A stretch of DNA of 50,963 nucleotides from a virus (IMGVR_UViG_3300025520_000101:1-50963); one strand, 5' to 3'. Numbered from the stretch's first letter, positions 5,980-27,671 are shown. Numbers and translations: made by a program. The notes: generated by a model from the sequence alone, not told the origin.

Positions 5980-6044
5980 TGTAACTCGTTTTTGATTGCC
6001 TGGTCGCATCGATCGCCGGCTGCAGGAAGCAATATTGAGTCACA
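5980..6044 (+). repeat. 65-bp TGTAACTC...GAGTCACA unit, copy A
   Basis: 64/65 identical to the reverse complement of 25191-25255; same length and termini as 11791 and 19000. Confidence 0.9.
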
Positions 6045-6069
6045 AATATTATTTTGAAAGGATGTAATT

Positions 6070-6423
6070 ATGAAAAATTTAAAGCAAATGAGGTTATCTA
6101 AACTTGTAAATGATTCAAACCCAGACTCAAAATTTATTAGAGATATGATAGAACAAAGCATCTCTTTTGTTGAAGATCACACAGAGTTACTTAGTGTCGA
6201 TGTAGTATCATTGGACGATATTTTTGATTTAAGACCAGATGAAATTATTAGTATCAACAAGTGCTACATTCAAAAGGTTATTGCATTTCACACCAACTTT
6301 ATAGCTATTGGGAAATGGATGGAAGATGATGCAAAACTATACACGATCATGTTCGCTAGCACCAAACCCGATGCGTTTGTTTACGATGTAAAAAATGATT
6401 TTGGGATTGAAATTAAACGATAA
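6070..6423 (+). CDS. Hypothetical protein
   Basis: SD AAAGGA directly after unit A. Confidence 0.65.
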   Translation: MKNLKQMRLSKLVNDSNPDSKFIRDMIEQSISFVEDHTELLSVDVVSLDDIFDLRPDEIISINKCYIQKVIAFHTNFIAIGKWMEDDAKLYTIMFASTKPDAFVYDVKNDFGIEIKR

Positions 6424-6458
6424 ACGGGATAGTCAGATATTATATTTTGGAGGTTTAA

Positions 6459-6665
6459 GTGATTTTTAGTGATTCGGTTATTGAAGGTATCAGTTTTATA
6501 GCACGATTACTGTGTTGGTGGGGAATATCCTTTGCTCTTATTTACATTGGATCTAAATTTTACTTTGTAGATAAGTTAAGCGTGAAAATCAAATTAATGC
6601 TTATCGTAGTTGTTATCTTATTTTCAAGAGTTGCATCAGAACTCATAGTATCAGGATTACTTTAA
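6459..6665 (+). CDS. Small membrane protein (2 TM)
   Basis: SD GGAGG, GTG start, two hydrophobic stretches. Confidence 0.6.
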   Translation: MIFSDSVIEGISFIARLLCWWGISFALIYIGSKFYFVDKLSVKIKLMLIVVVILFSRVASELIVSGLL

Positions 6666-6693
6666 AATCTTTGAGCAAGGAGAAGTTCAGGAG

Positions 6694-6858
6694 ATGAACA
6701 ATAGAAATAAGGAATTATTAGAACATATCAACAAGAAGCGTGCTGCAAATGATAAGAAAAAGTTCAGATTGGCTCTTATAATTTCATTGATGCCAATTAT
6801 TATTTTTGTTCTGTATCATGCCATTGCTGTAATATATGCTCTGTTTTTTAATAGCTAA
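6694..6858 (+). CDS. 54-aa membrane protein (not in ORF track)
   Basis: MNNRNKELLEHINKKRAANDKKKFRLALIISLMPIIIFVLYHAIAVIYALFFNS*, preceded by AAGGAG. Confidence 0.55.
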   Translation: MNNRNKELLEHINKKRAANDKKKFRLALIISLMPIIIFVLYHAIAVIYALFFNS

Positions 6859-6914
6859 TAGATAATTAGATTCTAATTTGCCCAAATGGGCTTTTTTCAT
6901 TAGGAGGGGTAATT

Positions 6915-7517
6915 TTGACAAGAAAAAAAGATGTTAAAAGCATCAAAGAATATGCAGCTGAAATTGTTGAAAAATTTGAACGATGGAACAATATACACAC
7001 GCATGGCGGTAGTGATCCTTTTTGGCCTGATGGATCTAATCTAATGCTCATTAGAAATCATATTATCCATGCAAAAAGAGGATTAGAAGAATACTGCGAA
7101 AGTAATAATCTTGAGCTACCAAACGAATATTATTTCCCGACACCAGATGAAGTAGATCGAGATTACATGGCCAGAAAAGATGAAATCATTGAAAAGGCAA
7201 AAGCTGATTTTTCTGTTATTTCCAATGACGAGGATTTTAAATTTTTACAAGGCACGTACACGCTTATCAATGATAAGAAAGTCAGAGAAGAAGCGCAAAG
7301 TATAGTCCGTAGGCTCGAACCAAACTTCAACGATTTAGTGGTTTTAAGAAGGTACAACCGCAGTGTTGAATGGGATATGAAGCGCCTTAAAGAATTCTTG
7401 GAAAAACATAGAGATTCTATGCTGTTAGGTTTTAATGCTGCGGACCATGAAAGGGATGATGAAGAATTAAATGATGATTATTTTGAAGATGATGATTACC
7501 AGTTTGAAGAGGAATAA
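6915..7517 (+). CDS. Hypothetical protein with acidic C-terminal tail
   Basis: SD AGGAGG, TTG start; GGSDPFWPDG motif; ends DDYFEDDDYQFEEE. Confidence 0.75.
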   Translation: MTRKKDVKSIKEYAAEIVEKFERWNNIHTHGGSDPFWPDGSNLMLIRNHIIHAKRGLEEYCESNNLELPNEYYFPTPDEVDRDYMARKDEIIEKAKADFSVISNDEDFKFLQGTYTLINDKKVREEAQSIVRRLEPNFNDLVVLRRYNRSVEWDMKRLKEFLEKHRDSMLLGFNAADHERDDEELNDDYFEDDDYQFEEE

Positions 7518-7558
7518 CGGTTTTTCAATAACCAATACGACTTGAAAGGAGGAGGGGC

Positions 7559-8386
7559 ATGCTTAACAAGAAAATTCATGAGATTCTAACGGAGATTGCT
7601 TTAAAAACTTATCCTGATGTTAAACACGTGAAATTCTACTTGGATATTGAAAACAGAGAAATGAAGTCATTTCATGGCGACTGGTCATTACCTTCAAATA
7701 GAGGGTATGCAACAATTCGAATATTCAATTTATCTCGTGGAACTAAGGATATCATCAAGACTTCTATTCATGAGCTGGCACATAACACCGAGTACTCTAT
7801 CTATAAAAAAACTGGACATTCTAAGCGCTTCTATGAAGTTTATAAAAAGCTTCTTACAACCGCCATACACATGAATCTATTTTCACTCAATGACATGGAT
7901 GATGTTGATTCAAAACATGATCTTGATATGTTGATCAAACATCATGGGCCTATTACACTGGATGAATCAAAAGTGGATGCTTATAAAGGCGACATCGCTA
8001 TTGTGAAGATTAAAAATTCCTATGATATTAAAGATCAGTTGAAGGAGCTTGGATACATTTATAATGCTCTTGAGAAATGTTGGAACACCGAGATTAGTAA
8101 ATCCGAACTTAATTCTCATCTTGTAAAAATCAAAGCGCTGACACAAGAATCAAACATCATTGTAACGGATTACTCAGACTTAAAAATTGATACTTATGGC
8201 TACCTGATCGTTTCTGGTAACACATACGCTATAAAGGACGATCTCAAATCTACTGGATTCATTTTTAATGGATATAACATCGGAACTAATGCTTGGGTGA
8301 AAAAAATCCTGATGAAAGATAAAGATGTCGAAATTATGAATCTTAAGAAATATGATTCTATACATGTATCGATGAAAACTATATAA
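7559..8386 (+). CDS. SprT/WLM-like zincin metallopeptidase with two C-terminal repeats
   Basis: IHELAH...GHSKRFY (HExxH plus third His); repeats SYDIKDQLKELGY..W and TYAIKDDLKSTGF..W. Confidence 0.7.
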   Translation: MLNKKIHEILTEIALKTYPDVKHVKFYLDIENREMKSFHGDWSLPSNRGYATIRIFNLSRGTKDIIKTSIHELAHNTEYSIYKKTGHSKRFYEVYKKLLTTAIHMNLFSLNDMDDVDSKHDLDMLIKHHGPITLDESKVDAYKGDIAIVKIKNSYDIKDQLKELGYIYNALEKCWNTEISKSELNSHLVKIKALTQESNIIVTDYSDLKIDTYGYLIVSGNTYAIKDDLKSTGFIFNGYNIGTNAWVKKILMKDKDVEIMNLKKYDSIHVSMKTI

Positions 8387-8398
8387 GGGGTGAAAAAC

Positions 8399-9214
8399 AT
8401 GAAAAATCCATTTAATCTCAGCAATTTTAGAATCGAATCGCTCAATGTTGATACTTTTGTTGTCAGATCAGATAGCGAGCGCTTCGGGAAAGGTGCAATT
8501 ACATTTGAAAGCTTTTCTAGAAATGATTGTGTAGAATATATATTCAATAATTCGGATCCCGTAAAGCCATCGTATTATGTCATTGAAGATTTGAGCACTT
8601 GGAGCTCAAATGCTGCTGTAAAAAGCAAGATTGAGCGTTTTGATACGTTTATAGATGCGATTAAGGCTTTTGATAGGTATCGTTCAAATCCTTATGATTA
8701 TACAGATGAAAAGGCAAGACTTACTCTTGGCGTATCCGTGGGCAACGCCGAGGTAGACATCATTCATGTAAGGGGTGATAAGAATTGTCTTGTTGCCGAT
8801 TTTATAGGATCTCCAGCGATAAACACCAATAAGTACTTTCTTAATAATATGATGAGCTTAAATAATCTCATCGGTATCGATCGAATCAGGTTGTATAATA
8901 CTGGTGGATTTTCAGATGTTGAATACAAAGACTGGACAAATATGTTCTTTAAAGACGCATCAATGGATGAATATGTTAGAACGTGTAATAGCTGCAAGAA
9001 CGATATGTTTGAAGGCTATCTGTTGGAAGTGAGCGGTGACACATACTGTTCGGAGGAATGTCTACACTTAGAAGTCTCTCCAGATGAATATGAAGAGTTT
9101 TTTGAATCAGGCGATGCATGCTGGACAACATTCCCTATTCCGGATGGTTATATGCTTGATGATGTGCAGGATTATAAAGTATTAGTTGATGAAGAAATGG
9201 ATATGGAGGTGTAA
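8399..9214 (+). CDS. Hypothetical multidomain protein with C-terminal Zn finger
   Basis: CNSC...YCSEEC; acidic tail DEEMDMEV. Confidence 0.7.
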   Translation: MKNPFNLSNFRIESLNVDTFVVRSDSERFGKGAITFESFSRNDCVEYIFNNSDPVKPSYYVIEDLSTWSSNAAVKSKIERFDTFIDAIKAFDRYRSNPYDYTDEKARLTLGVSVGNAEVDIIHVRGDKNCLVADFIGSPAINTNKYFLNNMMSLNNLIGIDRIRLYNTGGFSDVEYKDWTNMFFKDASMDEYVRTCNSCKNDMFEGYLLEVSGDTYCSEECLHLEVSPDEYEEFFESGDACWTTFPIPDGYMLDDVQDYKVLVDEEMDMEV

Positions 9215-9215
9215 A

Positions 9216-9452
9216 ATGAAACGAGTTGGAACATACAAATCGTTCAAGCTTTATGAAGTGACGGAAAAAGATATTTATGAGTCTGGGGGCGCTGAAAGCA
9301 CCTATGTTAAAGGTTCGATTTTGATCTTTCTTCCGGATGATGATAATCCTTCTTTTCGATACGAAGAATGGAACGCTGATTCCATGCAAGAAGCAAAAGA
9401 TTTTATTGATAGTCATGAAATCAATGACGCTGAAGATGAATATGAGAGGTGA
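9216..9452 (+). CDS. Small acidic hypothetical protein
   Basis: SD GGAGGTG, ATG 9216. Confidence 0.65.
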   Translation: MKRVGTYKSFKLYEVTEKDIYESGGAESTYVKGSILIFLPDDDNPSFRYEEWNADSMQEAKDFIDSHEINDAEDEYER

Positions 9453-9483
9453 GTTTGATTAATAAGTATATTGGAGAAAATTT

Positions 9484-9837
9484 ATGGATAAAGAAAATTA
9501 TAATGTAAAAGAAAAAATCTATTTTGTACCATACTATGCGAATGGTTCCGGATTCTGGGGATTGCTTTTTTATTTCGTTTTGGAAAAAATATTTAGGAGA
9601 ATAAGCTTAAAGAGCATTCTAACGAAAGTAAGAAAATTGTCTTTGCTATCCTCTTTATTGGTCCTACTGTTTCTTGTTGGGTGGTTTAGTTTTTCAATAT
9701 TAATACCTTCACTAGAAGTATCTAATATAACTCTCGATGAGATATTTAAAAATGAAATAAGTCATGAGAAGCTACTGCGATTCAAGATTGAAGTTGATGA
9801 AAGAAGTTCATTTATCAGGAGCGATCCAATAAATTAA
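9484..9837 (+). CDS. Membrane protein
   Basis: Two hydrophobic segments; SD GGAG. Confidence 0.55.
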   Translation: MDKENYNVKEKIYFVPYYANGSGFWGLLFYFVLEKIFRRISLKSILTKVRKLSLLSSLLVLLFLVGWFSFSILIPSLEVSNITLDEIFKNEISHEKLLRFKIEVDERSSFIRSDPIN

Positions 9838-9873
9838 ATTCACAAAATAGAATAATAACCTGAAGGAGAATTT

Positions 9874-10290
9874 ATGAGTGTAAGAAAAACGTTGTTTATT
9901 AGCAATTTGAGTGATTTACCAAGCTCAGAGCAATATTATACCTCTAGAAAATACGACAGCATGGAGTATGTGAAAAAGAGCATAAAATATTTTGTCGTTA
10001 GCTCATTGATCGGCCTTTTCTTCGCATGGATATTAACGCTGGATGGAGCTTCGATTGATCCAAACATTAGCACTGGCTTATCACGTGTAATTATCGTAGC
10101 TGCGTTTGGATATATGGGATTTTCTTTCCATGCAGGAATGTCATTAATCGATGCGAAAGTGAGTTTTGTAACGATTCTAATACTATTAGTTACAGGGATT
10201 CTTGCCTTAGTGTTTGCTTTTGCAACTGCAATAGGATCTATAATCGCCATTCCACGTTTTATAATCAATGTACGTAAGATCTACAAATAA
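9874..10290 (+). CDS. Membrane protein (3-4 TM)
   Basis: SD AAGGAG; several hydrophobic segments. Confidence 0.65.
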   Translation: MSVRKTLFISNLSDLPSSEQYYTSRKYDSMEYVKKSIKYFVVSSLIGLFFAWILTLDGASIDPNISTGLSRVIIVAAFGYMGFSFHAGMSLIDAKVSFVTILILLVTGILALVFAFATAIGSIIAIPRFIINVRKIYK

Positions 10291-10308
10291 TTCATGTGAG
10301 GTGTTTTT

Positions 10309-10566
10309 ATGAAATACAAAGAAGAAAATGAAAAAATAATTACCGACACTGGTCGAGTGGATGATGACGTGCTACAGTACATTAAATCGATTTCAGCGAT
10401 CATCGACTTTGACTTGTCCCAATTCGAAATATCTAACATTTACTCATTGAATGCTATTTTGGATTCTCCAGATCGTTTTATCAACGATGCTGATACTTGT
10501 CAGAAGATTAGAGATCTTAAAGAGCTTATTCGTTTAATGGGAGGTCTCGAAAATGTATCAAAATGA
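10309..10566 (+). CDS. Hypothetical protein coupled to the RadC-like gene
   Basis: SD GAGGTG; overlaps the next ORF. Confidence 0.6.
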   Translation: MKYKEENEKIITDTGRVDDDVLQYIKSISAIIDFDLSQFEISNIYSLNAILDSPDRFINDADTCQKIRDLKELIRLMGGLENVSK

Positions 10567-11770
10567 TTTAGAGCGTTTTATAGAGCTTTTTAGTTCTTTT
10601 ACAAAAGTAAATAAGTCAACTCTAACTAAATTCTTGAGAGACAACAATGTTACAGAACTTTTATCAAGACCAACGGATGTCACGCTCAATCCAAAATCGC
10701 TAGAAGCTATTGAGAACCTACGGTCATTGCGAAACCTTTTTGACAACTTAAAATCATACGATCGTGAGTATAAGCTTACAAGCCCTAAAGAAGCGTGCGA
10801 CTATTTTAAGAATAGATTTGCCGATATAAGAGACAAAGAATACTTTTCCGTTACTTACTTAGACACGAAAAATCGTGTGATTGATTCTGAAATCATTTTC
10901 AAAGGAACTATTAATGCGTCTGCTGTTTTTCCAAGAGAGATATTTAAAAACGTTTTAATGAAAAATGCGCAATCTGTTTTATTCGGCCACAATCACCCGT
11001 CTGGCATTTGTGATCCTAGCAAAGAAGATATCGCAATTACAAGAAGGTTAATTGAAGCTGGCAATATCTTCAACATCTCAGTACTAGATCATGTAATTGT
11101 AGGTGGAACTAACTACTATTCCATGAGAGAAAATAACGATTTTGTTTTTGAAAATTCATTCTCTAACGATATCAAATCTGGACTTGTTAGTGAATCTGCT
11201 TCGGAACAATATATGTTGAAAGGGGAGGATGTAGCAGTGGAAAAAAAGAATAGCACGGAAGTAAAAATGTTATATGAGATGATCGGCTACAAGCTTGACG
11301 ACAAACTTTGCTTCACGACATTTGAAATGTTAGAAAATGAGTTCGAAAAAGGAAATCTATTTGAAAATATAAAAGCGTTTTCAAATCTTCCGGACGAAGA
11401 GAAACAATTAATGGCTAATGATTTTGAAGTTAATTTTAAACAGTATCAAGATGATTATGAATGGGATGAGTTTTATCGTGACAATGTAGCGAATTATAAT
11501 CAAATCACTGAAATTATTAATTTCGATTATACTGATATATCTGTAGATGGTCATGCCGGCAGATGGCATTCAGTAATGGAAGTGCCAAACAGATGGAGCA
11601 ATGAATTTAATGAGGGCGAACCTTTTTACCTGGTAAAACATGATAGCGAAGATAAACCATACGCAATCATAACTGAAAATCTTCGTGTTGTGCTTCATGA
11701 AGCTCCAAACGGTTTCAGAGATCTAGATATGGAGTCACAGATTTCTAATGATCAAGAATTTGAAATGTAA
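10553..11770 (+). CDS. radC: RadC/JAB (UPF0758) domain protein with acidic C-terminal extension
   Basis: KEYFSVTYLDTKNRVI...GTINASAVFPREIFK...HNHPSGICDPSKED...VLDHVIVG. Confidence 0.9.
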   Translation: MYQNDLERFIELFSSFTKVNKSTLTKFLRDNNVTELLSRPTDVTLNPKSLEAIENLRSLRNLFDNLKSYDREYKLTSPKEACDYFKNRFADIRDKEYFSVTYLDTKNRVIDSEIIFKGTINASAVFPREIFKNVLMKNAQSVLFGHNHPSGICDPSKEDIAITRRLIEAGNIFNISVLDHVIVGGTNYYSMRENNDFVFENSFSNDIKSGLVSESASEQYMLKGEDVAVEKKNSTEVKMLYEMIGYKLDDKLCFTTFEMLENEFEKGNLFENIKAFSNLPDEEKQLMANDFEVNFKQYQDDYEWDEFYRDNVANYNQITEIINFDYTDISVDGHAGRWHSVMEVPNRWSNEFNEGEPFYLVKHDSEDKPYAIITENLRVVLHEAPNGFRDLDMESQISNDQEFEM

Positions 11771-11790
11771 GTTGAATTTTGATTAATCTT

Positions 11791-11855
11791 TGTAACTCGT
11801 TTTTTTATGCTGGTAGCTCATGGCCAATGCCTGGAGAAGGACATTTTGAGTTACA
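11791..11855 (+). repeat. 65-bp TGTAACTC...GAGTTACA unit, copy C
   Basis: Perfect 8-bp terminal IR, 49-bp spacer; core TGGTAGCTCATGGCCAATGCCT resembles copy D. Confidence 0.85.
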
Positions 11856-11876
11856 TTCAATTAGAAAGAGGTGTTT

Positions 11877-12035
11877 ATGGAAAATAACGAAAAAGAAAAA
11901 AGAAGAAAACGAATTGAGGTTCTTATGAAGCAATATGAGGAATTGTATGGCTACGATCACGTCATGAACAATTTCAATTATTTCTATGACAAAGCGGTCT
12001 CAGAAGAGTACACAGTAACTGATGTCTCAAACTAG
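11877..12035 (+). CDS. 52-aa hypothetical protein (not in ORF track)
   Basis: SD GAGGTG after unit C; MENNEKEKRRKRIEVLMKQYEELYG...VSN*. Confidence 0.55.
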   Translation: MENNEKEKRRKRIEVLMKQYEELYGYDHVMNNFNYFYDKAVSEEYTVTDVSN

Positions 12036-17926: not shown

Positions 17927-19004
17927 AGAATGGAAAATATTTAATTTCTCCGACGTTTTTGATATCCAAGGTGGTTTTTATAATAAGAAACCACCTAAAG
18001 AGAAGAATGGTACAATTCCTTTTTTAGGCGCATCTGGATTTAATAATGGTATTACTGAGTTTTATACTTTGGATACTATAAAAAATAATAGTAAAACTGG
18101 TTCAGGAAAAAATGAAAAGATTGAGCAAAAAATATATAAAGGCAATTGTATATGTGTAGCAAACAATGGTGTTGGAACAGGGAGTTCATTTTATCAAGTT
18201 GTTGATTTTACTTGTAGTCATGATGTTAACCCATTGTATTTGAAAAATTATACCTTAAATGAGAATATTGCACTGTTCTTAATCCCTTGTATTAAAGCTC
18301 AAAAAATGTGTTTTGAATATTCTCGTAAATGGCGACCTTCAAGAATGAAAAACTCTAAATTTATGCTACCGACAAAAGATGGAATAAATCCTGACTGGGA
18401 ATTCATGGATGAATATATTTCAGCACAAAAGAGGGATAAAAAAAATTCATGTACGAAATATATTAATGATAGATTAAATGAAATTAAATATAGGAATATT
18501 CCATTATTAAAAGAAAAATCATGGAGAACATTTTTTTTATCTGATATATGTTATATTGAATCAGGACAAGATATTTACGCCGATGAAAGAAAAGAAGGAG
18601 ATATTCCATATTTATCGTCTGGTTCGCAAAATAATGGAGTTGGGTATTTTGTATCAAATTCAAATCAAACATTAGAAGCAAATGCCATTTCTATAAATAG
18701 GAATGGTTCAGTAGGATATGCTTTTTATCATAAATATCCGGCATTGTATTCTAATGATTGTAGAAAATTAAAATTGAAAGAACATCGCAATGAATATGTT
18801 TCTTTGTTCATAACAAACCAAATAATGCAACAAAAGGATAAATATAATTATGGTTATAAAATGGGAACTGGAAGATTGCAAAAACAACTAATACTATTAC
18901 CGATCAACGACATGGATGAACCAGATTATGAATATATGGAACAATATATCAAAAATCTAATGATCTCAAAATATAAAAAGTATATAACAACTGTATCTAT
19001 GTAA
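17910..19004 (+). CDS. RM specificity subunit (BcgI-beta/HsdS-like, two TRDs)
   Basis: Internal duplication EWKIFNFSDVF/SWRTFFLSDIC and PDWEFMDEYI/PDYEYMEQYI; overlaps the upstream gene. Confidence 0.85.
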   Translation: MKLTDREWKIFNFSDVFDIQGGFYNKKPPKEKNGTIPFLGASGFNNGITEFYTLDTIKNNSKTGSGKNEKIEQKIYKGNCICVANNGVGTGSSFYQVVDFTCSHDVNPLYLKNYTLNENIALFLIPCIKAQKMCFEYSRKWRPSRMKNSKFMLPTKDGINPDWEFMDEYISAQKRDKKNSCTKYINDRLNEIKYRNIPLLKEKSWRTFFLSDICYIESGQDIYADERKEGDIPYLSSGSQNNGVGYFVSNSNQTLEANAISINRNGSVGYAFYHKYPALYSNDCRKLKLKEHRNEYVSLFITNQIMQQKDKYNYGYKMGTGRLQKQLILLPINDMDEPDYEYMEQYIKNLMISKYKKYITTVSM

Positions 19005-19064
19005 CTCAAAACCTTTAACCGGCAGCTCGTGATCAACGCCTTCAGGAAGATGTTATGAGTTACA
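19000..19064 (+). repeat. 65-bp TGTAACTC...GAGTTACA unit, copy D
   Basis: IR extends to ATGTAACTCA/TGAGTTACAT; contains the TAA stop (19002-19004) of the S-subunit gene. Confidence 0.85.
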
Positions 19065-19117: not shown

Positions 19118-19528
19118 TCACTTTCTCTGGGATGTTTTCTGGCTTTCAACATAACGTTGAATGGCATCCATTGAGATTTCACCTACAGTTGATACGAGGT
19201 AACTATGGGTCCAAAGGGTGGGTAACTTGGTTCTTAATTGAGGAAATTCATCTCTTAAATATTTGGAAGTAATTCCTTTTAGGTTTTTAACCGCTTTATG
19301 AATACCTGTTTGCGGATCTACTTCAATTAATAGTTGCACATGATCTGGCTTGATTTCCAGTTGGATTATATCGATGTTCATGTTGGCACACGTTTCATTT
19401 AACAACTCCTTAAGCCGTGTTTCGACATCGCCAACTAGAATTTTTCTTCGATATTTTGGACACCAGACAACATGATATCTGCAAGAGTAGACTATATTAT
19501 TGCTTGATTTATATTTTGAATTTATCAT
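19118..19528 (-). CDS. tnpA: IS200/IS605-family Y1 transposase TnpA; HUH motif reads H-V-Q; no tnpB
   Basis: YHVVWCPKYRRKIL, PDHVQLL, LWTHSY, IQRYVESQK. Confidence 0.9.
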   Translation of the reverse strand: MINSKYKSSNNIVYSCRYHVVWCPKYRRKILVGDVETRLKELLNETCANMNIDIIQLEIKPDHVQLLIEVDPQTGIHKAVKNLKGITSKYLRDEFPQLRTKLPTLWTHSYLVSTVGEISMDAIQRYVESQKTSQRK

Positions 19529-19883: not shown

Positions 19884-20583
19884 TCATAGAATGTATTTGT
19901 TGATGTGCTTATTATACTCGGTCTGAGCATCATTTATTGAAAGTTTTGAATAGATCTCTAATGATTTCCTACTTTCATGGCCACTATATGGCTGTATCAG
20001 TGCATCATCGATACCTTGTTTTTTTAACCAGGTGAACAAATAATGGCGCAGCTTATGTGGTGAAACATTTTTAGGGAGGTTGGCCGTCATAGAATATTTT
20101 TCAAGAATCTTTCGTATACCTCGATCGGTATATTTTTTGTTCCAGGATGATTCAAAGAGGTACACCGATTTTAATTTAAGCTTCTGATCTATATGAAAAG
20201 CAAGTAATTCTTTGAAGGATGAAGGGAAGGGGACAATCCTATCTTTATGACCTTTGCCATCGTTAATTTTAATCTGACATTCATTAAGCAGCACATCGAC
20301 AATTTTTAAATCGACAAGCTCTGAAACCCTTATTCCAGTGTATAAAAACATCTTAATGATTTATCATATCCTGAAAATTCTTAGAGCTCCACACAGCGTC
20401 ATAATAGCGCTTAATTTCTTCATCAGTAGGAACATAAGGGAGAGTTTTTTTCTTTTTGGGGATTTCAATCTCAAGTTCAGATCTAAGTTCTTTAAAAACA
20501 GCTTTCAAATAATCATAATCGGGTCGTTCATGGCGGAGATGCTTGGATAATTCTTTTGCCTTTTTCTTTGGTGATGTCCTCAT
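19884..20583 (-). pseudogene. Short tyrosine recombinase split by a +1 frameshift near 20361
   Basis: Removing one A from ATA-AAT-CAT restores DMIIIKMFLYTGIRVSEL; GKGHKDR, HKLRH, SGH and LEIY are intact. Confidence 0.85.
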
Positions 20584-21847: not shown

Positions 21848-22523
21848 CGTCGCCCTCCTTTTCTTTATAAATCAGAAATGAATCTTCAAACTCATTCCTT
21901 ATTCCCACTTCGATGCGTTTCTTATAAAGATAATCGTAAATACCCAATTGGGTTAATAAAGCCTTACAGTAAGCAAGTGTACTTGATCTCCTTGAACAAG
22001 CTTTATTTGATACAAACATACCATCTTGACTTGCGAATAAAACTACTTTCAGAGTGTTCCATTCACAAATAATTTCAAAGCCGTATTGAACAACTGGTAA
22101 TTCAGAATACTCTCTCTCGTCATGCTCTACAAATACATTTGCATTAACAAATTCTCCAAAGGATCCGGTTGAACGCTTAGTAGATATAATAGCATCTATA
22201 TTATCAAAATATTGAGCTACCACATTTACTAAGTTTGCATAGTAAACATCTTTATATATAGGATTAATCTCCTTCATTTCATCCTTAGATGTTGTTATAT
22301 TCAGTTTATTTTTTTGTTTATCTACTGTATTTTTTAAATACAGCTCCTCAGCTAGAAATTCATTGATTTGTTCTCGGCCATCTTTAAAATACAAAACGTG
22401 ATATTTCATGGGAAAAATAAACCGTGTCATTTTGACAACAACACCTTCAAATAGGTGATTCTCATCAATTGTGCCTTCTGTGAATATAACTACATCACCA
22501 ACATTAATTTTATTTTTTTTCAT
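21840..22523 (-). CDS. Hypothetical protein, N-terminal SH3/KOW-like segment
   Basis: SD AGAGG, ATG 22523; INVGDVV...EFLAEEL. Confidence 0.6.
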   Translation of the reverse strand: MKKNKINVGDVVIFTEGTIDENHLFEGVVVKMTRFIFPMKYHVLYFKDGREQINEFLAEELYLKNTVDKQKNKLNITTSKDEMKEINPIYKDVYYANLVNVVAQYFDNIDAIISTKRSTGSFGEFVNANVFVEHDEREYSELPVVQYGFEIICEWNTLKVVLFASQDGMFVSNKACSRRSSTLAYCKALLTQLGIYDYLYKKRIEVGIRNEFEDSFLIYKEKEGDDE

Positions 22524-22833
22524 ATTTACCTCTTTCAATATTTTTTCTGAATTTATCCAACGTTACAGGTCTACCAGGATCATATTGACCTAAAATAACC
22601 CCATTCTGATTATGAAAATCTTTATTGAAGAAATCAATTGAGATAGCATTTTGTGTATTGATCATCCACGCTTCATCAAATAAAGGTGGGAGCATTTTCG
22701 CAAATGGTTTTCTTCGCATCGGCTTTCCATGCATTTTCAACCAATTATTTGACATGAATCTGTGTTCATAGTTTCTCTTAACCACTACGAAATCTGGCTT
22801 TTTAAAATCTTCTATACTCTGTGTTACAATCAT
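22510..22833 (-). CDS. Hypothetical protein, paralog 1 (SNNWLKMHGKPMRRKPF)
   Basis: SD AAAGGAG; homologous to 23725-24024. Confidence 0.65.
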   Translation of the reverse strand: MIVTQSIEDFKKPDFVVVKRNYEHRFMSNNWLKMHGKPMRRKPFAKMLPPLFDEAWMINTQNAISIDFFNKDFHNQNGVILGQYDPGRPVTLDKFRKNIERGKYEKK

Positions 22834-22926
22834 CAAGATGTTTCTCCTTTCATCTAGGGAAAAAAGCGAAAAAGCCATACATTAAAAGTCCACCAATACA
22901 CACATAAACCCCTTAGCATACATGAA

Positions 22927-23142
22927 CTATGCACTTAAAATATCTATTTTTTTAAGCTTTTCAAGCGCTGATTTTATATCGGATATACCGTCAGAGAGAG
23001 ATTCAATTAACTCTAACGTTTCACGATCCTTATTTTCAATGCGTTGATATTTATCCAATCGTTCCTTCTTAAACTTTAATTGTTCAGTCAATGCCGACTT
23101 TATCTCAAACACTTCATTAGCGGTAAACATAAACAAACTCAC
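22927..23142 (-). CDS. Small coiled-coil hypothetical protein
   Basis: 71-aa ORF in the operon; AAGGAG at the start. Confidence 0.55.
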   Translation of the reverse strand: MSLFMFTANEVFEIKSALTEQLKFKKERLDKYQRIENKDRETLELIESLSDGISDIKSALEKLKKIDILSA

Positions 23143-23210
23143 TCCTTCACATTTTATTCAAACAGCTTAATACCTATTAAACCTTCATCCTGATTAACGG
23201 AAATATTAGA

Positions 23211-23648
23211 TTATTTCTCACTAACTGTTACTTCACCAACGCCAATATGACCAATAATTTTACACTTAAAACATATATTGAATTTAGGACTATCTTGTCT
23301 TTCATCGTCGGCAAGCCTATAGATTGGTTCGCCACATTTAGAACAAGTTGTTTGTTCTTGCTTTCTAGCTTTAAAATAAGATTTCATTTTTTCCCTTTGT
23401 GGTTGTTCTTCAATTTTTAACTCTCGATTTCTCAATTCCCAGTTGAGCCACGTTAATTCATCTTTACTCATTCCCCAAGTGATTATTAGGAAAAGGAGAA
23501 CACCTACCCACAAAAAAAATGTATTTTTGTCGTAATGTCCAGTCCATGCATATAAAAGCCAGAACGCAATTGTAGTAACAATTGAACATAATAGAGCGAT
23601 CGGAACTGCCTTTGCAATTATCATTAAGTGACTTGTTAGTTTTTTCAT
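23211..23648 (-). CDS. Membrane protein (2 TM) with C-terminal Zn ribbon
   Basis: Two hydrophobic helices; CSKC...CFKC. Confidence 0.65.
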   Translation of the reverse strand: MKKLTSHLMIIAKAVPIALLCSIVTTIAFWLLYAWTGHYDKNTFFLWVGVLLFLIITWGMSKDELTWLNWELRNRELKIEEQPQREKMKSYFKARKQEQTTCSKCGEPIYRLADDERQDSPKFNICFKCKIIGHIGVGEVTVSEK

Positions 23649-23724
23649 ATTTACCTCTTTCTAAATTTTTTCTGAATATATCAAACGCTGCAGGACGACC
23701 AGGATCATGTTGACCAACAATGAT

Positions 23725-24024
23725 TCAATTTTGTTTTTTGATATCTTTACTGAAGAAATCGAATTTAATAGCATTTTGTGTATTGATCATCCACGCTTCA
23801 TCAATTAATGGGCGGGGCATTTTCTTGAATGGTTTTCTTCGCATTGGTTTTCCATGCATTTTCAACCAGTTATTTGATTTGTATTTGTGAAAATCATTTC
23901 TTTCAACTCTAATAAATTCGGGTCTTTTAAAATCCGCTAAGCTTTGTGTTAAGATGTGTTGTCTGCGTTCTTTTTTTCCAAGCTCGATTAAAAATTCTTT
24001 GCATTTTTCATTGAAATCACTCAT
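23725..24024 (-). CDS. Hypothetical protein, paralog 2, shortened by an in-frame TGA
   Basis: TGA aligns with GGG of paralog 1; homology continues past the stop. Confidence 0.6.
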   Translation of the reverse strand: MSDFNEKCKEFLIELGKKERRQHILTQSLADFKRPEFIRVERNDFHKYKSNNWLKMHGKPMRRKPFKKMPRPLIDEAWMINTQNAIKFDFFSKDIKKQN

Positions 24025-24025
24025 A

Positions 24026-24427
24026 TTAAACCTCTTTATCCATATTGAGCTTACCAAACCACAGTTCAAACGACATTCTCAATAAAAATGCAAAGTTCAA
24101 AACAATTACCATAATTTTTATTCCCCAAAAGAGGATGTCCATTATGACTAAATTTAAGAAAATCGAACCTAACGAAAGCTTTAATATTGGATATGCTGAC
24201 GAAATAAAAATTACTAGGTTAAGTAAAATACCGAAGATAGCTATGAATCTTGATTGTTTTTGTCTTCTGGTATTAATCAAATACAAAAGTGCTGAAGTGC
24301 CTAAAAACAAACTCAAAATCATTACTTCTATTTTCGTGTAATAAGCAAATGACAAACCTAGTATTAAAATCCAGGTAATAATTGCTGTAACTGTAGATAC
24401 CGTTAGAAAATCGTTATTTTTTCGCAT
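24026..24427 (-). CDS. Membrane protein (4 TM)
   Basis: SD GAGG; hydrophobic throughout. Confidence 0.6.
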   Translation of the reverse strand: MRKNNDFLTVSTVTAIITWILILGLSFAYYTKIEVMILSLFLGTSALLYLINTRRQKQSRFIAIFGILLNLVIFISSAYPILKLSLGSIFLNLVIMDILFWGIKIMVIVLNFAFLLRMSFELWFGKLNMDKEV

Positions 24428-24453
24428 TTGTGACCTCACAATCTATGTAGAAG

Positions 24454-24801
24454 CTATTTAAAAAGCGACAAGTTAAACATAATTAAGGCTAAACATATAG
24501 TAATAAATATAATCCAATAAAGCAGACCATCTATTTCGTACCATCGAGCCAGAAGATTAAAAGGGATAAGAACGATAATGGCAAGAGGAAACATGGTTAT
24601 TGAAAGAAGAATTAACATACCTACAGAATCTGGATATTTATCATACATAACACCAATTAAGTATGTAAATATCAATAGAGCCAACAGCAATAAGATCAGT
24701 TTCTTTTCTTTTTTTTCTCTTTCTAAATCTATACTATTTTTCTTTTTCATAGTGCACTCGATTTGATTTCTTCTCATTCTAAATCCTCTCTTTCTCAACA
24801 A
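24454..24801 (-). CDS. Membrane protein (3 TM); start uncertain
   Basis: Basic N-terminus followed by three hydrophobic segments. Confidence 0.55.
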   Translation of the reverse strand: MLRKRGFRMRRNQIECTMKKKNSIDLEREKKEKKLILLLLALLIFTYLIGVMYDKYPDSVGMLILLSITMFPLAIIVLIPFNLLARWYEIDGLLYWIIFITICLALIMFNLSLFK

Positions 24802-24874
24802 TCTTAGTTTCTAGTATTATTTTCACTTTCATTAATCGTTGTCTTTTCTTCCTTCTCAAACATCCACCCATATT

Positions 24875-25144
24875 CTAAAACAAAATAACCAAAGCAAGTG
24901 CATTTAAACCAACTTCTTTGTACTTAGTATAAAGAAAATGCTTCCAAGGTTCCGATGGAATCTTATAAGATTTGAGTCTATGTGTAACTGGATATGCTTT
25001 TTTAGTTTTTGGTTTTTTACTGATTCTCAATTTTTTTTGTCTATTATTGCAGTTAATACAAAGTTTTGGCGTGTGTCCTAGACCGATTAAAACACCGCAA
25101 GAAGAACATCGGTCAGGAGCTTTTCTTTTTTCATTGTAAGTCAT
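24875..25144 (-). CDS. Small basic Zn-finger protein
   Basis: SD GAGG, ATG 25144; CSSC...CINC; lies after unit B. Confidence 0.5.
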   Translation of the reverse strand: MTYNEKRKAPDRCSSCGVLIGLGHTPKLCINCNNRQKKLRISKKPKTKKAYPVTHRLKSYKIPSEPWKHFLYTKYKEVGLNALALVILF

Positions 25145-25190
25145 GATAAATCTACCTCGTATTAAAAGTGATGCTTCTTTTAAAAATATT

Positions 25191-25255
25191 TGTGACTCAA
25201 TATTGCTTTCTGCAGCCGGCGATCGATGCGACCAGGCAATCAAAAACGAGTTACA
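25191..25255 (-). repeat. 65-bp TGTAACTC...GAGTCACA unit, copy B
   Basis: Reverse complement of copy A with 1 mismatch. Confidence 0.9.
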
Positions 25256-25282
25256 AGATAGGATATTGAAAAAGAAATGTCA

Positions 25283-25681
25283 TTAATACGGTTCTGATTC
25301 GCCATCCCAATAATATGGACTGTTTTCGCAAGATTCTTTTGCAGCGCAATCTTTACATTCAGTACAGTCTTTAGTTTCGAATCTTGAATCACTAATTTGT
25401 CGATATAGGTTGATAACCTCTGGATTTTCTTCATTGAATCTTTCATCATTGAGTGCAGGTATCTTAAAAATGCCTTCCATATCATTCATAAGCTCAGTAG
25501 CGTTAGCGCCTTGTTCAAACTTTCCTCGAATGCGCTCCAATGCTAAGTAATAGCTATTCGGATTCGCTTCAACACATTTGCTGTGAAAGGGCCAACCACC
25601 TTCTCTAATTGTTATTTCTGATCCTTCTTTGACTGGTTCAAAGCAAACTCTACATACACCGAGATAATCATCATTTTTCAT
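25283..25681 (-). CDS. Cys-rich hypothetical protein
   Basis: CRVC...HSKC and CTECKDC....C; SD AAGGAG. Confidence 0.65.
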   Translation of the reverse strand: MKNDDYLGVCRVCFEPVKEGSEITIREGGWPFHSKCVEANPNSYYLALERIRGKFEQGANATELMNDMEGIFKIPALNDERFNEENPEVINLYRQISDSRFETKDCTECKDCAAKESCENSPYYWDGESEPY

Positions 25682-25693
25682 AGCTCGTCTCCT

Positions 25694-26191
25694 TTAAAAT
25701 TCTAATTCTTCACTATCTTCATTTGTGTCATCTTCTATTTCGTAAGGCCGTTTCCAGTACGTAGATTCATAGTACTTATAACACTCATCAACGAGTTTAA
25801 CTTCACCATTGATTAGCTCATATCGATAACTGTAATCATCCTCTTCTGGAAATACTTCAATCATCTGTACAGATTCAATGAAGTATGGCAGTAGTTTAAA
25901 GAAATGTTCAATCTCCTGATCGTAATTGTTTGTGCTGCATTGAAAGGTCCAAACTCCTGTGAATGAATCTAAGTGATTTAAGAATTCCTCATCATCTTCA
26001 TCCCAATCCCCTGGCATATGATGTAGAGGACCGTTAGGAATGTTTGAAGCATTTCTATATTTTCCAAATTCATGAAACATTATATCCGGATGGCTTAACC
26101 AATCGCCTGATGCCGCTATTAGATTAAAATTAGATCTAAATTCTTTCTTTACGACTCCTTTAAATCGTAAGCCAGTATATACACCACTCAT
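25694..26191 (-). CDS. Phage-type hypothetical protein with acidic tail
   Basis: SD AGGAGG, ATG 26191; MSGVYTGLRFK...WTFQCSTNNYDQEIEHFF. Confidence 0.65.
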   Translation of the reverse strand: MSGVYTGLRFKGVVKKEFRSNFNLIAASGDWLSHPDIMFHEFGKYRNASNIPNGPLHHMPGDWDEDDEEFLNHLDSFTGVWTFQCSTNNYDQEIEHFFKLLPYFIESVQMIEVFPEEDDYSYRYELINGEVKLVDECYKYYESTYWKRPYEIEDDTNEDSEELEF

Positions 26192-26201
26192 GCCAATCCT
26201 C

Positions 26202-26627
26202 CTACCAAATTTGATTTTTAAACCAGTCATAATAGCTATTTACCGTACTTTTTGTAAGATTGTAAATGCTTGCACATTCCTGAAATCCTTTTTCTTCAAC
26301 ATTTTTAATAAATTCCTGTTTCATTTCATCGGTCCAACGAATAGTGCCTTTTGGAGCATTGATAACTCTATTATTTGGTATTACAAGATCATCAATTGTA
26401 ATATGAAAAAATACGCAAACTTTCAAAGCAAATTCAAAAGAAAGTTTACAAGGATTTGCTTGGTTGTAGAAATTTTTTAGCTGACTTTTTGACACACCTA
26501 GCATATCAGCAATATATTTTAAGTTAAAATCACTGTTTTTGACCAATTCATACAAATTGTTTTTAATAGACTTGTTGTCTGCATTATTTAATTTATCTAT
26601 TAAAGATAGAATTTCTTCATATTTCAT
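26202..26627 (-). CDS. Double-HTH regulator (XRE-like plus C-terminal HTH)
   Basis: LKYIADMLGVSKSQLKNF...FHITIDDL; ECASIYNLTKSTVNSYY. Confidence 0.75.
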   Translation of the reverse strand: MKYEEILSLIDKLNNADNKSIKNNLYELVKNSDFNLKYIADMLGVSKSQLKNFYNQANPCKLSFEFALKVCVFFHITIDDLVIPNNRVINAPKGTIRWTDEMKQEFIKNVEEKGFQECASIYNLTKSTVNSYYDWFKNQIW

Positions 26628-26763
26628 AATCGTGTCAATCCTCTTTTCTTATCAAAAATAGTATATCAAAACCACACGTTATGTCTCAGTAAACATTTTA
26701 TTCTTGTAATGCTTTTTACAAATAATTTTCTATATTTTAATGTGAAGGTGAAGAGGGCGGTTT

Positions 26764-27090
26764 TTAATTGTTGATTACAACTTCTATTGATTTGCTGTCT
26801 TGAACAGTATATCTGACTGGAATAATGATGACTTGGCCAGGATATATTGGATCGTCTTTTAGATTGTTGCTTGTTTTGATTTCGTGTATTATTTGTCGAA
26901 CGTCCTCGTTGTAGTAGTTGAAATTTTTCGCTATATCCCAAAGAGTATCATTTGGGACGACTGTATATATATGATGTCTTGTATAAACCTCTTCTTTTGT
27001 GTTAAAATTATTGATGAAAGAGGTAATTGTGATTACAATGAGTATCAGTAGAGCGATTGAGCGAATCCTTCTAAATGTTCTCTTTTTCAT
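26764..27090 (-). CDS. TM-anchored single-LysM protein, YneA-like
   Basis: Basic N-terminus, TM, then YTVVPNDTLWDIAK...EIKTSNNL..IYPGQVIIIP. Confidence 0.8.
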   Translation of the reverse strand: MKKRTFRRIRSIALLILIVITITSFINNFNTKEEVYTRHHIYTVVPNDTLWDIAKNFNYYNEDVRQIIHEIKTSNNLKDDPIYPGQVIIIPVRYTVQDSKSIEVVINN

Positions 27091-27311
27091 ATTTTATCCT
27101 TTCTTGGAGGCAGGTGCGAACTGCCTTCTTTTATTTTTTTGTAGAAATTCAATTGTTGGATCTTCACCTTCAGATGAAACATGTTTAGTAAATGGAGATT
27201 TTGCATAGTTTCAATTTGTCAACCATTTTTACCCCGTATTTATGTGGGTTTTTTTACTTTTTATTATTTGATAAAATACAACTACTTGCGCCAAATGCAT
27301 AATCTTGCTAT

Positions 27312-27602
27312 TTAGTCAGATTGGGATAGAGATGCTGCTTTTTTAAAAACATACTCCAAATTTCGTTTCATTGTTTCCAGTTCACTTAAAAGATATTGTT
27401 GTTTTACAATTTCTTTGTTGGTCTGAAGCAGCCTTTTCTGCTTTTCTGCTAATTGTTTTTCAATATCCGGAATGCTCGTCATTGCGAAAAGGACCATATT
27501 TTCAAATTTTTCATTAAACCCGTCGCCTTTTTGTGATTCAACGAAATTCCGAACAGTTTCTGTCATGCGAATGCTCCTGCTGTACTCTTTTTTTTCCTTC
27601 AT
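27312..27602 (-). CDS. Putative ribbon-helix-helix protein with coiled coil
   Basis: SRSIRMTETVRNFV beta-alpha pattern, GFNEKFENMV, heptad tail; SD GGAGG directly after unit E. Confidence 0.6.
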   Translation of the reverse strand: MKEKKEYSRSIRMTETVRNFVESQKGDGFNEKFENMVLFAMTSIPDIEKQLAEKQKRLLQTNKEIVKQQYLLSELETMKRNLEYVFKKAASLSQSD

Positions 27603-27617
27603 GTCATACCTCCATTT

Positions 27618-27671
27618 TGTGACTCTATTTCATGTTGATTTCCAGGTGATCGATCTTATTTTTGAGTTACA
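27618..27671 (-). repeat. Shortened (54-bp) TGTAACTC...GAGTCACA unit, copy E
   Basis: Minus strand TGTAACTC-aaaaataagatcgatcacctggaaatcaacatgaaata-GAGTCACA; shares ATCGATC with A/B. Confidence 0.75.

What the first reader, a model, noticed from the sequence alone, without database searches (positions are those of the whole stretch)
5980..27671. Family of fixed-length units TGTAACTC-N49-GAGT(T/C)ACA at gene junctions: best candidate for an undescribed system
Seen: A 5980-6044(+), C 11791-11855(+), D 19000-19064(+) and B 25191-25255(-) are all exactly 65 bp; E 27618-27671(-) is 54 bp. A and B are 64/65 identical 19 kb apart, and identity starts exactly at the 5' TGT. C and D share YGGYAGCTCRTGRYCAAYGCCT. 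All follow local transcription and lie at or after a stop codon; four precede an SD. Cores are GC-rich, can form imperfect hairpins and hold no sigma-A promoter. Hypotheses (inference): (1) paired operators for the RHH-like protein right after E; (2) attC-like ssDNA recombination sites (AAC...GTT core, a stop codon inside D) for gene cassettes, with a tyrosine recombinase 0.8 kb from D; (3) REP-like units spread by the Y1 transposase next to D; (4) a new cis-acting RNA motif.
Basis: partly seen in the sequence, partly recalled or inferred. Interest (0 to 1): 0.85.

Follow-up and report, generated by a model that had tools for sequence, protein, structure and literature searches.

The report
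Dyad-symmetric 65-bp junction units, island-specific
A low-GC mobile island carries five copies of a fixed-length DNA unit with identical 8-bp inverted ends at gene junctions; they look like double-stranded protein-recognition or recombination sites that mark where gene modules are swapped, not like an RNA motif or integron site, and their function is still untested.

Summary
All five units sit exactly where stated. The pattern gives 7 hits against 0 in 100 shuffles.

- The A/B repeat is 71 bp, running 6 bp past the 3' arm.
- E matches the family only by its arms and its length.
- A sixth type, F, found in the one fetched relative L021, lies flipped relative to the genes.

What the units are not:
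- No Rfam family matches.
- With the arms held fixed, the cores fold no better than shuffles.
- RNAalifold finds only the terminal stem, with 0 covarying pairs.

These results weigh against both a structured RNA and an attC-like hairpin.

Outside this lineage the units were not found: 401 genomes, IMG/VR pattern hits and 38 loci of distant relatives gave nothing. One metagenome holds the A-type unit at about two copies per island. This weighs against a host-wide REP or MITE.

What the units show:
- invariant arms and an invariant central G..C;
- an excess of short palindromes;
- in-register homology between types;
- similarity to relatives that breaks at unit edges.

My best reading, at about 0.35, is a dyad-symmetric dsDNA recognition site acting as a module-junction or recombination site. 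A dispersed operator is the close rival. The scan's earlier notes show no look-alike on other DNA.

The parts
5980..6050 (+). Unit A: 65-bp unit plus 6 bp shared with B, making a 71-bp repeat
   Evidence: inverted repeat I1. In run X4 it appears as a 71-nt unitig at about 2x depth. Its orthologue A' in L021 at 7197-7261 differs at 12 of 65 positions.
11791..11855 (+). Unit C
   Evidence: Its core matches D in register at 27/49 positions, z 5.0. In L021 the same junction holds a 59-aa ORF plus the flipped unit F. In X5, 888 nt are inserted between 11770 and 11778.
19000..19064 (+). Unit D; the stop codon of ORF 17877-19004 lies in its 5' arm
   Evidence: In X5, similarity to the window resumes at 18999. 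An X2 contig diverges at 18991. L021 ends 16 nt into the orthologous unit.
25185..25255 (-). Unit B: inverted copy of A, 70/71 identical
   Evidence: In X4 a 31-kb contig begins 30 nt inside it.
27618..27671 (-). Unit E: 54 bp, 11 bp shorter, with the same arms
   Evidence: The covariance model scores it 49.8 bits. Its core is not significantly like the others.
4832..4860 (+). Strong sigma-70-like promoter that starts the plus operon holding A, C and D
   Evidence: 11 of 12 matches, with an extended TG.
27959..27987 (-). Strong sigma-70-like promoter that starts the minus operon holding E and B
   Evidence: 11 of 12 matches, with an extended TG.
19118..19528 (-). IS200-type Y1 transposase gene, 53 bp from D
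   Evidence: NCBIfam IS200 equivalog 149 bits; RAYT model 17.7 bits, below its cut-off of 80. PHROG transposase. The region 18999-20770 is about 96% conserved in X5.
19884..20351 (-). Xer-like tyrosine recombinase, C-terminal fragment (pseudogene)
27312..27602 (-). Small protein after E, candidate ribbon-helix-helix DNA binder
   Evidence: My reading of the translation. The Atlas leads to RHH families score 0.78-0.80, which makes them leads only. Pfam and NCBIfam give nothing.
27672..27920 (-). Small protein before E, also RHH-like by eye
   Evidence: my reading. No family hit.
29456..31153 (+). Large serine recombinase at the right end of the low-GC island
   Evidence: Pfam Resolvase, Recombinase and Zn_ribbon_recom. 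GC profile.

Best explanation
The units are discrete, dyad-symmetric double-stranded DNA sites. Each has two invariant half-sites (TGTRACTC) held 49 bp apart, with AT-rich stretches inside each arm and a palindrome-rich core centred on an invariant G..C (GATC, or GGCC in C). I read them as recognition sites for a symmetric protein complex, encoded by the island or the host. Their role would be as junction or recombination sites between gene modules of a roughly 27-kb low-GC island that carries a large serine recombinase.

Units with the same core would pair with each other. The inverted pair A/B is the example. Recombination between them, or between like units on related islands, would invert or replace the DNA between them.

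What is shown: the anatomy, the lack of single-strand structure, the restriction to this lineage, and breaks in similarity at unit edges. What is inferred: that a protein binds, that recombination happens at the units, and which enzyme does it.
For: 1. Symmetry and fixed geometry.
- Both arms and the central G and C are invariant in 7 of 7 aligned units.
- Six units are exactly 65 bp. E is 11 bp shorter, about one helical turn.
- 6-bp palindromes in 5 independent cores number 11 against 3.1 expected, P=0.0002.

2. The types are homologous in register, with no indels: 21-27 of 49 positions, z 3.1-5.0, for A, A', C and D.

3. Orientation is not fixed. F read in reverse matches A (22/49, z 3.0) and D (23/49, z 3.45). 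F read forward does not (z 0.5-1.6).

4. There is no single-strand fold.
- Core z-scores are -0.7 to +1.6 with RNA and DNA parameters on both strands.
- RNAalifold predicts only the arm stem.

5. Breaks in similarity fall at unit edges.
- In X4, flanks 95-97% like the window end or begin 30 nt inside the repeat. The 71-nt repeat is its own unitig at depth 134, against 59 for the flanks. Nothing of 6051-25184 is present at 80% or more, apart from 4 short pieces.
- In X5, the RM module is missing and similarity resumes at 18999. 888 nt are inserted 13 nt before C. An A/B-type unit sits at another junction (22326 / 21848).
- An X2 contig diverges at 18991.
- L021 has a different, flipped unit plus an extra ORF where the window has C.

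6. A and B evolve together. The two X4 copies collapse into one unitig that differs from the window's copy at 3 positions.

7. A and B are inverted, and each is co-oriented with its own operon. An A x B inversion would therefore keep every gene co-oriented with a promoter. This last point is inference.
Against: - No binding or recombination was observed.
- No contig bridges A or B, so neither orientation of the 19-kb segment could be tested.
- Most rearrangements do not involve units. Only 1 of 7 alignment gaps between L021 and the window lies at a unit. X5 shows at least 10 joints elsewhere.
- A break next to D could also reflect ordinary turnover of RM specificity genes.
- The only intact recombinase is the large serine recombinase. 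Such enzymes normally act on one attP/attB pair, and from recall the unit is longer than known att sites.
- The tyrosine recombinase is a pseudogene.
- Concerted evolution of a 71-bp repeat needs only occasional homologous gene conversion, so it does not show site-specific recombination.
- Only one relative could be read as sequence (L021, up to D).
- E's 11-bp difference is a single case.
Confidence: 0.35

Rival explanations
1. Dispersed operators, or transcription roadblocks, for an island-encoded repressor. Candidates are one of the RHH-like proteins flanking E or the Cro/C1-type HTH protein 26202-26627. Sites spaced along both long operons would silence them while the island is integrated. 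This is the way stoperators or SPBRE sites work in phages.
For: - The units have dyad symmetry, invariant arms and fixed spacing.
- All five lie in short intergenic gaps downstream of the two strong promoters. E follows the first gene of the minus operon. A follows the third gene of the plus operon.
- Candidate small DNA-binding genes lie next to E.
- There is precedent: SPBRE sites are bound by MrpR (passages of PMC10516654). Stoperators are the other precedent; I saw only the abstract start of PMC9283540 in the listing.
Against: - Operators need not be 65 bp long, or identical over 71 bp as A and B are.
- None of the units overlaps a promoter-like site.
- This reading does not by itself explain breaks in similarity exactly at unit edges, or an A/B-type unit at a new junction in X5.
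- The RHH assignment is only a lead.
Confidence: 0.25
2. Miniature non-autonomous mobile elements, of the MITE or REPIN kind. They would be copied within the island lineage by the resident IS200-type Y1 enzyme or by a host transposase, and the subtypes would be diverged copies.
For: - The units are discrete, with a sharp 5' boundary and terminal inverted repeats of the TGT...ACA type.
- A and B are near-identical in unrelated flanks.
- X5 has a copy at a new junction, apparently truncated to 50 nt.
- One unit lies in the opposite orientation, and E has an internal deletion.
- The Y1 gene lies 53 bp from D and is conserved there in X5.
Against: - The flanks show no consistent target duplication or shared target tetranucleotide.
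- Copy number is about 2 per island in X4, and the MAG holding an identical contig has 1 copy.
- 0 of 401 genomes and no IMG/VR hit hold a member.
- No DDE transposase was seen among the ORFs scanned.
- The Y1 enzyme is an IS200 equivalog, not a RAYT.
- The units lack the subterminal hairpins that Y1 enzymes use, as far as I recall.
- In X4 the units persist where the tnpA region is absent at 80% identity or more.
Confidence: 0.15
3. A cis-acting RNA element in the polycistronic transcripts. It could be a processing or stability site, or a protein-binding hairpin closed by the 8-9 bp arm stem, acting between cistrons.
For: - In the window all five units are co-oriented with transcription and lie between a stop codon and the next ribosome-binding site, or a terminator.
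- The arm asymmetry (3' arm with C in A, A', B and E) is kept in one direction relative to the genes.
Against: - No Rfam match even at E up to 10.
- 0 covarying pairs, and only the invariant arm stem is predicted.
- Cores fold no better than shuffles.
- On the sense strand the variant arm gives an A.C mismatch; on the antisense strand it gives G.U.
- F is flipped.
- D lies at the very end of an operon.
Confidence: 0.1
4. attC-like folded single-strand recombination sites of an integron-like cassette system, served by the nearby tyrosine recombinase.
For: - The arms hold AAC...GTT at the two ends, in attC order. The stop codons of two upstream ORFs lie inside the 5' arm: D, and F in L021.
- Unit length is within the attC range, from recall.
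- A tyrosine recombinase fragment lies 0.8 kb from D.
Against: - There is no second stem and no fold beyond the arms.
- A, B and E have GTC, not GTT, in the 3' arm.
- The recombinase is a Xer-like pseudogene. The integron-integrase model scores 63 bits against a cut-off of 265.
- Intervals between units hold 6-10 genes.
- F is flipped.
- In X5, D stays with its downstream flank and not with the upstream cargo.
Confidence: 0.05

Closest known systems
dif modules bounded by pdif (XerC/XerD) sites in Acinetobacter plasmids
   Same: Short dyad-type sites at gene junctions bound modules that differ between related replicons. Inversions and deletions occur between sites whose variable middle parts are identical or nearly so (abstract of PMC13141974). 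That echoes the A/B pair with identical cores bracketing a replaceable 19-kb segment.
   Different: From recall, pdif sites are 28 bp with a 6-bp spacer. These units are 65 bp with a 49-bp core. No dif-like 11-6-11 arrangement is evident by eye. No recombination has been shown here, and the host is different (ribosome-binding sites suggest a Firmicute; my reading).
PeSL regulatory cassettes of T4-type phages
   Same: Small conserved intergenic repeats sit at the borders of variable genes. Recombination between them shuffles modules and makes mini-circles (abstract of PMC2839356).
   Different: PeSLs are a strong promoter plus a terminator stem-loop. The units hold no sigma-70-like promoter, have no U-tract terminator, and their cores differ between copies.
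Dispersed phage operators: SPBRE/MrpR of SPbeta and stoperators of cluster A mycobacteriophages
   Same: Many copies of one motif lie in intergenic regions across a mobile genome and are bound by a master repressor. MrpR even has a tyrosine-recombinase fold (passages of PMC10516654). For stoperators I saw only the abstract start of PMC9283540.
   Different: Those motifs are 13-15 bp. SPBRE sites lie in promoter regions. Here the conserved parts are two 8-bp arms 49 bp apart plus a centre, and the sites are not at promoters.
Integron attC sites
   Same: The terminal AAC...GTT inverted arms, a variable middle, a position right after or overlapping stop codons, and a length in the same range (range from recall).
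   Different: There is no folded L-box or extrahelical-base architecture and no IntI. The intervals are multi-gene, and one unit is flipped.
REP / REPIN elements with RAYT transposases
   Same: Short palindromic extragenic units lie after stop codons, with a Y1 HUH enzyme gene next to one of them.
   Different: The enzyme is IS200-type, not RAYT. Copy number is about 2-5 per island, and none were found in the genomes searched. There is no conserved hairpin body.
Large serine recombinase attachment sites
   Same: Quasi-palindromic duplex sites with conserved outer inverted motifs and a central crossover position (recalled). An intact enzyme of this family is encoded 1.8 kb from E.
   Different: From recall, known sites are about 40-56 bp and come as one attP/attB pair. 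Five internal sites in both orientations would be unprecedented. This was not tested.

Membership tests
Integron attC | Single strand folds into a hairpin with paired R and L boxes and extrahelical bases | tested here: not met
   Only the 8-9 bp arm stem forms. With the arms fixed, cores fold no better than 300 shuffles (z -0.7 to +1.6). The alifold consensus has 8 pairs, all in the arms.
Integron attC | Adjacent integron integrase (IntI) | tested here: not met
   The nearest tyrosine recombinase is a 155-aa Xer-like fragment. TIGR02249 scores 63 bits against a cut-off of 265. The frame is broken.
Integron attC | One site per mostly single-gene, promoterless cassette, all in one orientation | tested here: not met
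   The A-C interval holds about 10 ORFs and the C-D interval about 7. F is flipped.
Integron attC | Score with the IntegronFinder attC covariance model | not testable with these tools
   That model is not on hand. Rfam at E up to 10 gave no match on the units.
REP/REPIN with RAYT | Cognate RAYT-type Y1 transposase | tested here: not met
   NF047646 scores 17.7 bits against a cut-off of 80. The IS200 equivalog scores 149 bits against 55.
REP/REPIN with RAYT | Many copies spread over the host chromosome | tested here: inconclusive
   About 2 copies relative to the flanks in X4. 1 copy in the MAG holding an identical contig. 0 of 401 sampled genomes. The true host genome is unknown.
MITE | Terminal inverted repeats | tested here: met
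   The 8-bp arms are invariant in 7 of 7 units apart from one R position.
MITE | Target-site duplication flanking each copy | tested here: not met
   The flanks of A, B, C, D, E, A' and F share no direct repeat of consistent length (my reading).
MITE | Parent transposon with matching ends | tested here: inconclusive
   None was seen in the window among the ORFs scanned. Two large ORFs (31385-36415) were not scanned. The host genome is unknown.
Structured cis-regulatory RNA (any Rfam family) | Match to a curated covariance model | tested here: not met
   0 matches at gathering score over the window. None falls on the units at E up to 10.
Structured cis-regulatory RNA (new family) | Conserved secondary structure supported by covariation | tested here: not met
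   0 of 8 predicted pairs show a compensatory change, and no core structure is predicted. Only 7 sequences were available.
Dispersed operator / stoperator | Specific binding by a repressor of the same element | not testable with these tools
   Candidate binders are named.
Site-specific recombination site | Recombinant joints between sites (inversion, deletion circles) | tested here: inconclusive
   Contigs of 3 runs (X3, X4, X5) stop in or at the repeat, so no bridge can be read. No A-B or C-D joint is among the 15 of 40 joints shown.
PeSL-type linker | Promoter plus terminator stem-loop inside the repeat | tested here: not met
   No promoter-like or terminator-like site lies within any unit.

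The most novel reading that the evidence does not exclude
The units are the sites of an undescribed site-specific recombination system in which two fixed half-sites bind the enzyme and the long 49-bp core sets partner choice. Recombination of the identical inverted pair A/B would flip a 19-kb segment. That would swap the distal bodies of two convergent operons between their promoters, with every gene staying co-oriented. Exchange between like units on different islands would replace whole modules, as seen in X4.
Probability: 0.15. Interest if true: 0.8.

Novelty: new variant of a known kind. Interest (0 to 1): 0.45.

Why it matters
Mobile islands and phages are mosaics, but the sequences at which modules are joined are rarely identified. 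This is a sharply defined family: invariant half-sites, a fixed 49-bp spacing, and cores that differ between sites but are kept identical in one inverted pair. Similarity to three other metagenomic relatives breaks at the unit edges. If the units prove to be recombination sites, they would give a testable mechanism for cargo replacement, and possibly operon swapping, in serine-recombinase islands of Gram-positive bacteria. If they prove to be operators, they would add an unusually large, geometry-dependent site to the known dispersed silencing systems. Either way the claim is now narrow enough for a simple binding or read-pair experiment. It is also clear what the units are not: Rfam RNA, attC, or host REP.

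Tried and rejected
Relatives
- Single-protein look-ups for neighbours of C and D in IMG/VR found none.
- DNA searches of 5000-12000 against phages and of 4800-12700 against plasmids gave no match.
- RadC-domain hits are too widespread to be useful.
- An alignment of SprT-like homologues gave 11 genome loci, 68 metagenome loci and no viral loci. Only L021 (89% protein identity) and L010 (an identical 3.2-kb contig) carry units.
- A C. perfringens plasmid with a 40% homologue was fetched. My generic scans for analogous arm-pair families in distant loci were too noisy to read.

Distribution
- The A-type core 16-mer in IMG/VR gave 72 stretches, and 0 of them had arms next to it.
Each had a single site.
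- 79 of these were scored with model R1, all at 29.5 bits or less, against 49.8 or more for true units. The best one lies in coding sequence.

Expression
- No RNA holder was listed among the 23 runs.

Candidate binder
- A PDB sequence search with the protein after E gave nothing meaningful.
- The Atlas RHH leads score below 0.9.

Ideas dropped
- The first six bases of the arm equal what I recall as the -35 hexamer of a Bacillus ECF sigma class. I saw no matching -10 at the right spacing. This is recall; no test was run.
- A dif-like site within or beside the units is not evident by eye.
- As ends of a 19-kb transposon, A and B have no target duplication, and X4 keeps both ends with other cargo.
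- The units are too short to be a single-strand promoter or an sso.
- A full-text search for both arm words gave 91 papers. I saw only the 15 listed, all of which looked like primer or shRNA contexts by title.

Limits
- Supplements of papers were not opened.

Full report
1. The observation.

All five units are at the stated coordinates. A, C, D and B are 65 bp and E is 54 bp. The two-arm pattern occurs 7 times (5 sites, two of them palindromic in the arms) against 0 in 100 shuffles. Each arm alone is 5-6 times over-represented. The window is a complete 50,963-bp IMG/VR record, and it holds no further copy.

A and B are 64/65 identical, from the first T. The identity runs 6 bp past the 3' arm, so the repeat is 71 bp. 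C and D also stay similar for 6 bp past the arm.

2. Setting.

GC content is about 0.30-0.36 from roughly 3.8 to 31.2 kb and 0.38-0.44 outside that range. The units therefore lie in a low-GC island.

- Its right end carries a large serine recombinase.
- The plus operon starts at a strong promoter at 4832. It holds small genes, a SprT-like protein, a RadC-domain protein, replication-initiator-like HTH proteins, an Mrr-type nuclease and a methyltransferase with a partner protein.
- The minus operon starts at a strong promoter at 27987. It holds two RHH-like small proteins around E, a LysM protein, an HTH protein and many unknowns.
- The two operons converge at D. Next to D lie a terminator-like hairpin, an IS200-type Y1 transposase gene and a broken Xer-like recombinase gene.

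A, C and D lie in the plus operon and E and B in the minus operon. All sit between a stop codon and the next start, except D, which overlaps a stop codon and ends its operon.

3. Anatomy.

Aligned with two units from the relative L021, seven sequences keep both arms and a central G and C invariant. This centre is GATC in six and GGCC in C.

- AT-rich runs lie just inside the arms, and the middle is richer in G+C (0.43-0.51; E 0.29).
- Short palindromes are enriched. Five independent cores hold 11 six-base palindromes against 3.1 expected (P=0.0002), and 22 four-base palindromes against 13.4 (P=0.017).
- The cores of A, A', C and D are alike in register at 21-27 of 49 positions (z 3.1-5.0). The types therefore share descent or constraint without indels.
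- E is 11 bp shorter. Its core is not significantly like the others, and the gap can be placed on either side.

4. Not a structured single strand.

- Rfam gives nothing at gathering score, and nothing on the units at E up to 10.
- Single-sequence folds give z-scores from +1.3 to -3.3.
- When the arms are held and only the core is shuffled, no unit folds better than chance on either strand, with RNA or DNA parameters (z -0.7 to +1.6).
- RNAalifold predicts only the arm stem, with no compensatory change.
- In A, A', B and E the variant 3' arm makes an A.C mismatch on the sense strand.

5. Relatives.

An alignment-based scan gave one close relative, L021.

L021 is colinear with window 2439-19010 at 73-86% identity.
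- It has unit A' at the same junction as A, with 12 substitutions. These spare the arms and the central 17 bases.
- It has the start of a D orthologue at its last 16 bases.
- Where the window has C, it has a 59-aa ORF whose stop lies in the arm of a different unit, F. F matches A and D only when read in reverse, so it is flipped relative to the genes.
- Of 7 alignment gaps between L021 and the window, only this one involves a unit.

6. Other metagenomes.

23 coded runs hold parts of the region. Four were laid as contigs on 5500-25499.

X4:
- A 15.4-kb contig ends 30 nt inside A.
- A 31.4-kb contig starts 30 nt inside B.
- The repeat is a separate 71-nt unitig at depth 134, against 59 for the flanks, with 3 differences from the window.
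- Nothing else of 6051-25184 is present at 80% or more, apart from four short pieces.

So X4 holds two identical copies with the same boundaries. Both outer flanks are kept and the 19 kb between them is replaced or gone.

X5:
- One 17-kb contig is colinear with the A-C module.
- It has 888 nt inserted 13 nt before C.
- It lacks most of the RM module and matches again from 18999, one base before D, through the tnpA and recombinase fragment at about 96%.
- Another contig places 50 nt of an A/B-type unit between the homologues of 22326 and 21848.

X2: a contig diverges at 18991.

Contigs of X3, X4 and X5 all stop in or at the A repeat, so linkage across it cannot be read. Many other joints lie away from units.

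7. Distribution.

- Model R1, built from the seven units, finds only those seven in 528 kb of window and relatives' loci.
- IMG/VR pattern hits are single sites that score at chance level.
- The A core occurs only by chance in high-GC phages.
- The MAG that holds an identical contig has one unit, and four other genomes have none.
- 0 of 401 genomes sampled from one Firmicute phylum have the pattern.
- The scan's earlier notes list no look-alike elsewhere.

8. Reading.

The following fit a duplex site read by a symmetric protein assembly better than an RNA or a folded single strand:
- the invariant half-sites and the invariant centre;
- the palindrome excess and the strict length;
- a single variant shorter by about one helical turn;
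- freedom of orientation;
- the absence of single-strand structure.

The following fit a junction or recombination role:
- the sharp unit boundaries;
- the co-evolving identical pair A/B around a segment that is replaced in X4;
- the breaks at D in X5 and X2;
- the unit swap at the C junction;
- the extra A/B-type copy in X5.

Recombination could be site-specific, or homologous exchange that uses the unit as a portable linker. The dif-module system (abstract) and PeSLs (abstract) are the nearest precedents for that role. SPBRE/MrpR (passages) and stoperators (listing only) are the precedents for the rival operator reading.

I put the junction/recombination reading at 0.35, operator 0.25, miniature mobile element 0.15, RNA element 0.10 and attC-like 0.05. 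The rest goes to something not considered.

One inference is worth testing. Because A and B are inverted and each is co-oriented with its operon, an A x B inversion would exchange the distal parts of the two operons without putting any gene antisense.

9. Verdict.

This is a real, sharply defined, lineage-restricted repeat family with no described match in what I searched. The operator idea survives, and the breakpoint test is partly positive. The function is unproven, and only one relative could be read as sequence. I rate it a new variant of a known kind (dispersed junction or operator repeats of mobile elements), with interest 0.45.

Noticed in passing
window 19074-19086, 25261-25273, 7641-7653, 12736-12748, 15604-15616, 19624-19637(-), 20655-20667, 27456-27468(-): A second dispersed motif (GGWTATTGAAAAA-like) recurs through the island. 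It lies 9 nt after D and 5 nt from the 5' end of B, and also just upstream of tnpA. It holds a -35-like hexamer. Its relation to the units is unknown.
   Followed up: partly
window ~3.8-31.2 kb: A low-GC block (about 0.30-0.36) sits inside 0.38-0.44 GC DNA, with the serine recombinase at its right end. The units are confined to it. The flanking DNA holds an ABC-3C defence gene set and a phage-type replication module: DUF2800, Enc34 SSB, PolA, VapE and SNF2.
   Followed up: partly
window 19570-20583 (-): The tyrosine recombinase gene is split over frames and has in-frame stops. The region is nevertheless about 96% conserved in run X5.
   Followed up: partly
L021 7708-8220: The relative carries a free-standing GIY-YIG ORF just after A', where the window has none (Pfam 21.5 bits, just under the 22.6 cut-off). 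The relative also lacks the window's ATPase gene 3798-4763.
   Followed up: no
window 22515-22814 and 23640-23939: A 300-nt direct repeat at 80% identity lies inside the minus operon. It duplicates a gene-start region.
   Followed up: no
L010 / G001: A MAG titled Flavobacteriales holds a 3.2-kb contig identical to window ~4.7-7.9 kb. It has no other unit. The strong Shine-Dalgarno sites and the Firmicute homologues suggest the contig is mis-binned.
   Followed up: partly
window 11732-11739: A solitary copy of the 3' arm word lies 51 nt upstream of C, inside the RadC-domain gene. Solitary arm words number 3, against about 2.6 expected by chance.
   Followed up: yes
L021 52-5945: Left of the island, the relative encodes an SLH-domain protein and a 1549-aa protein. 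The latter is the full form of the window's truncated 1245-aa ORF. This points to a host with an S-layer.
   Followed up: no
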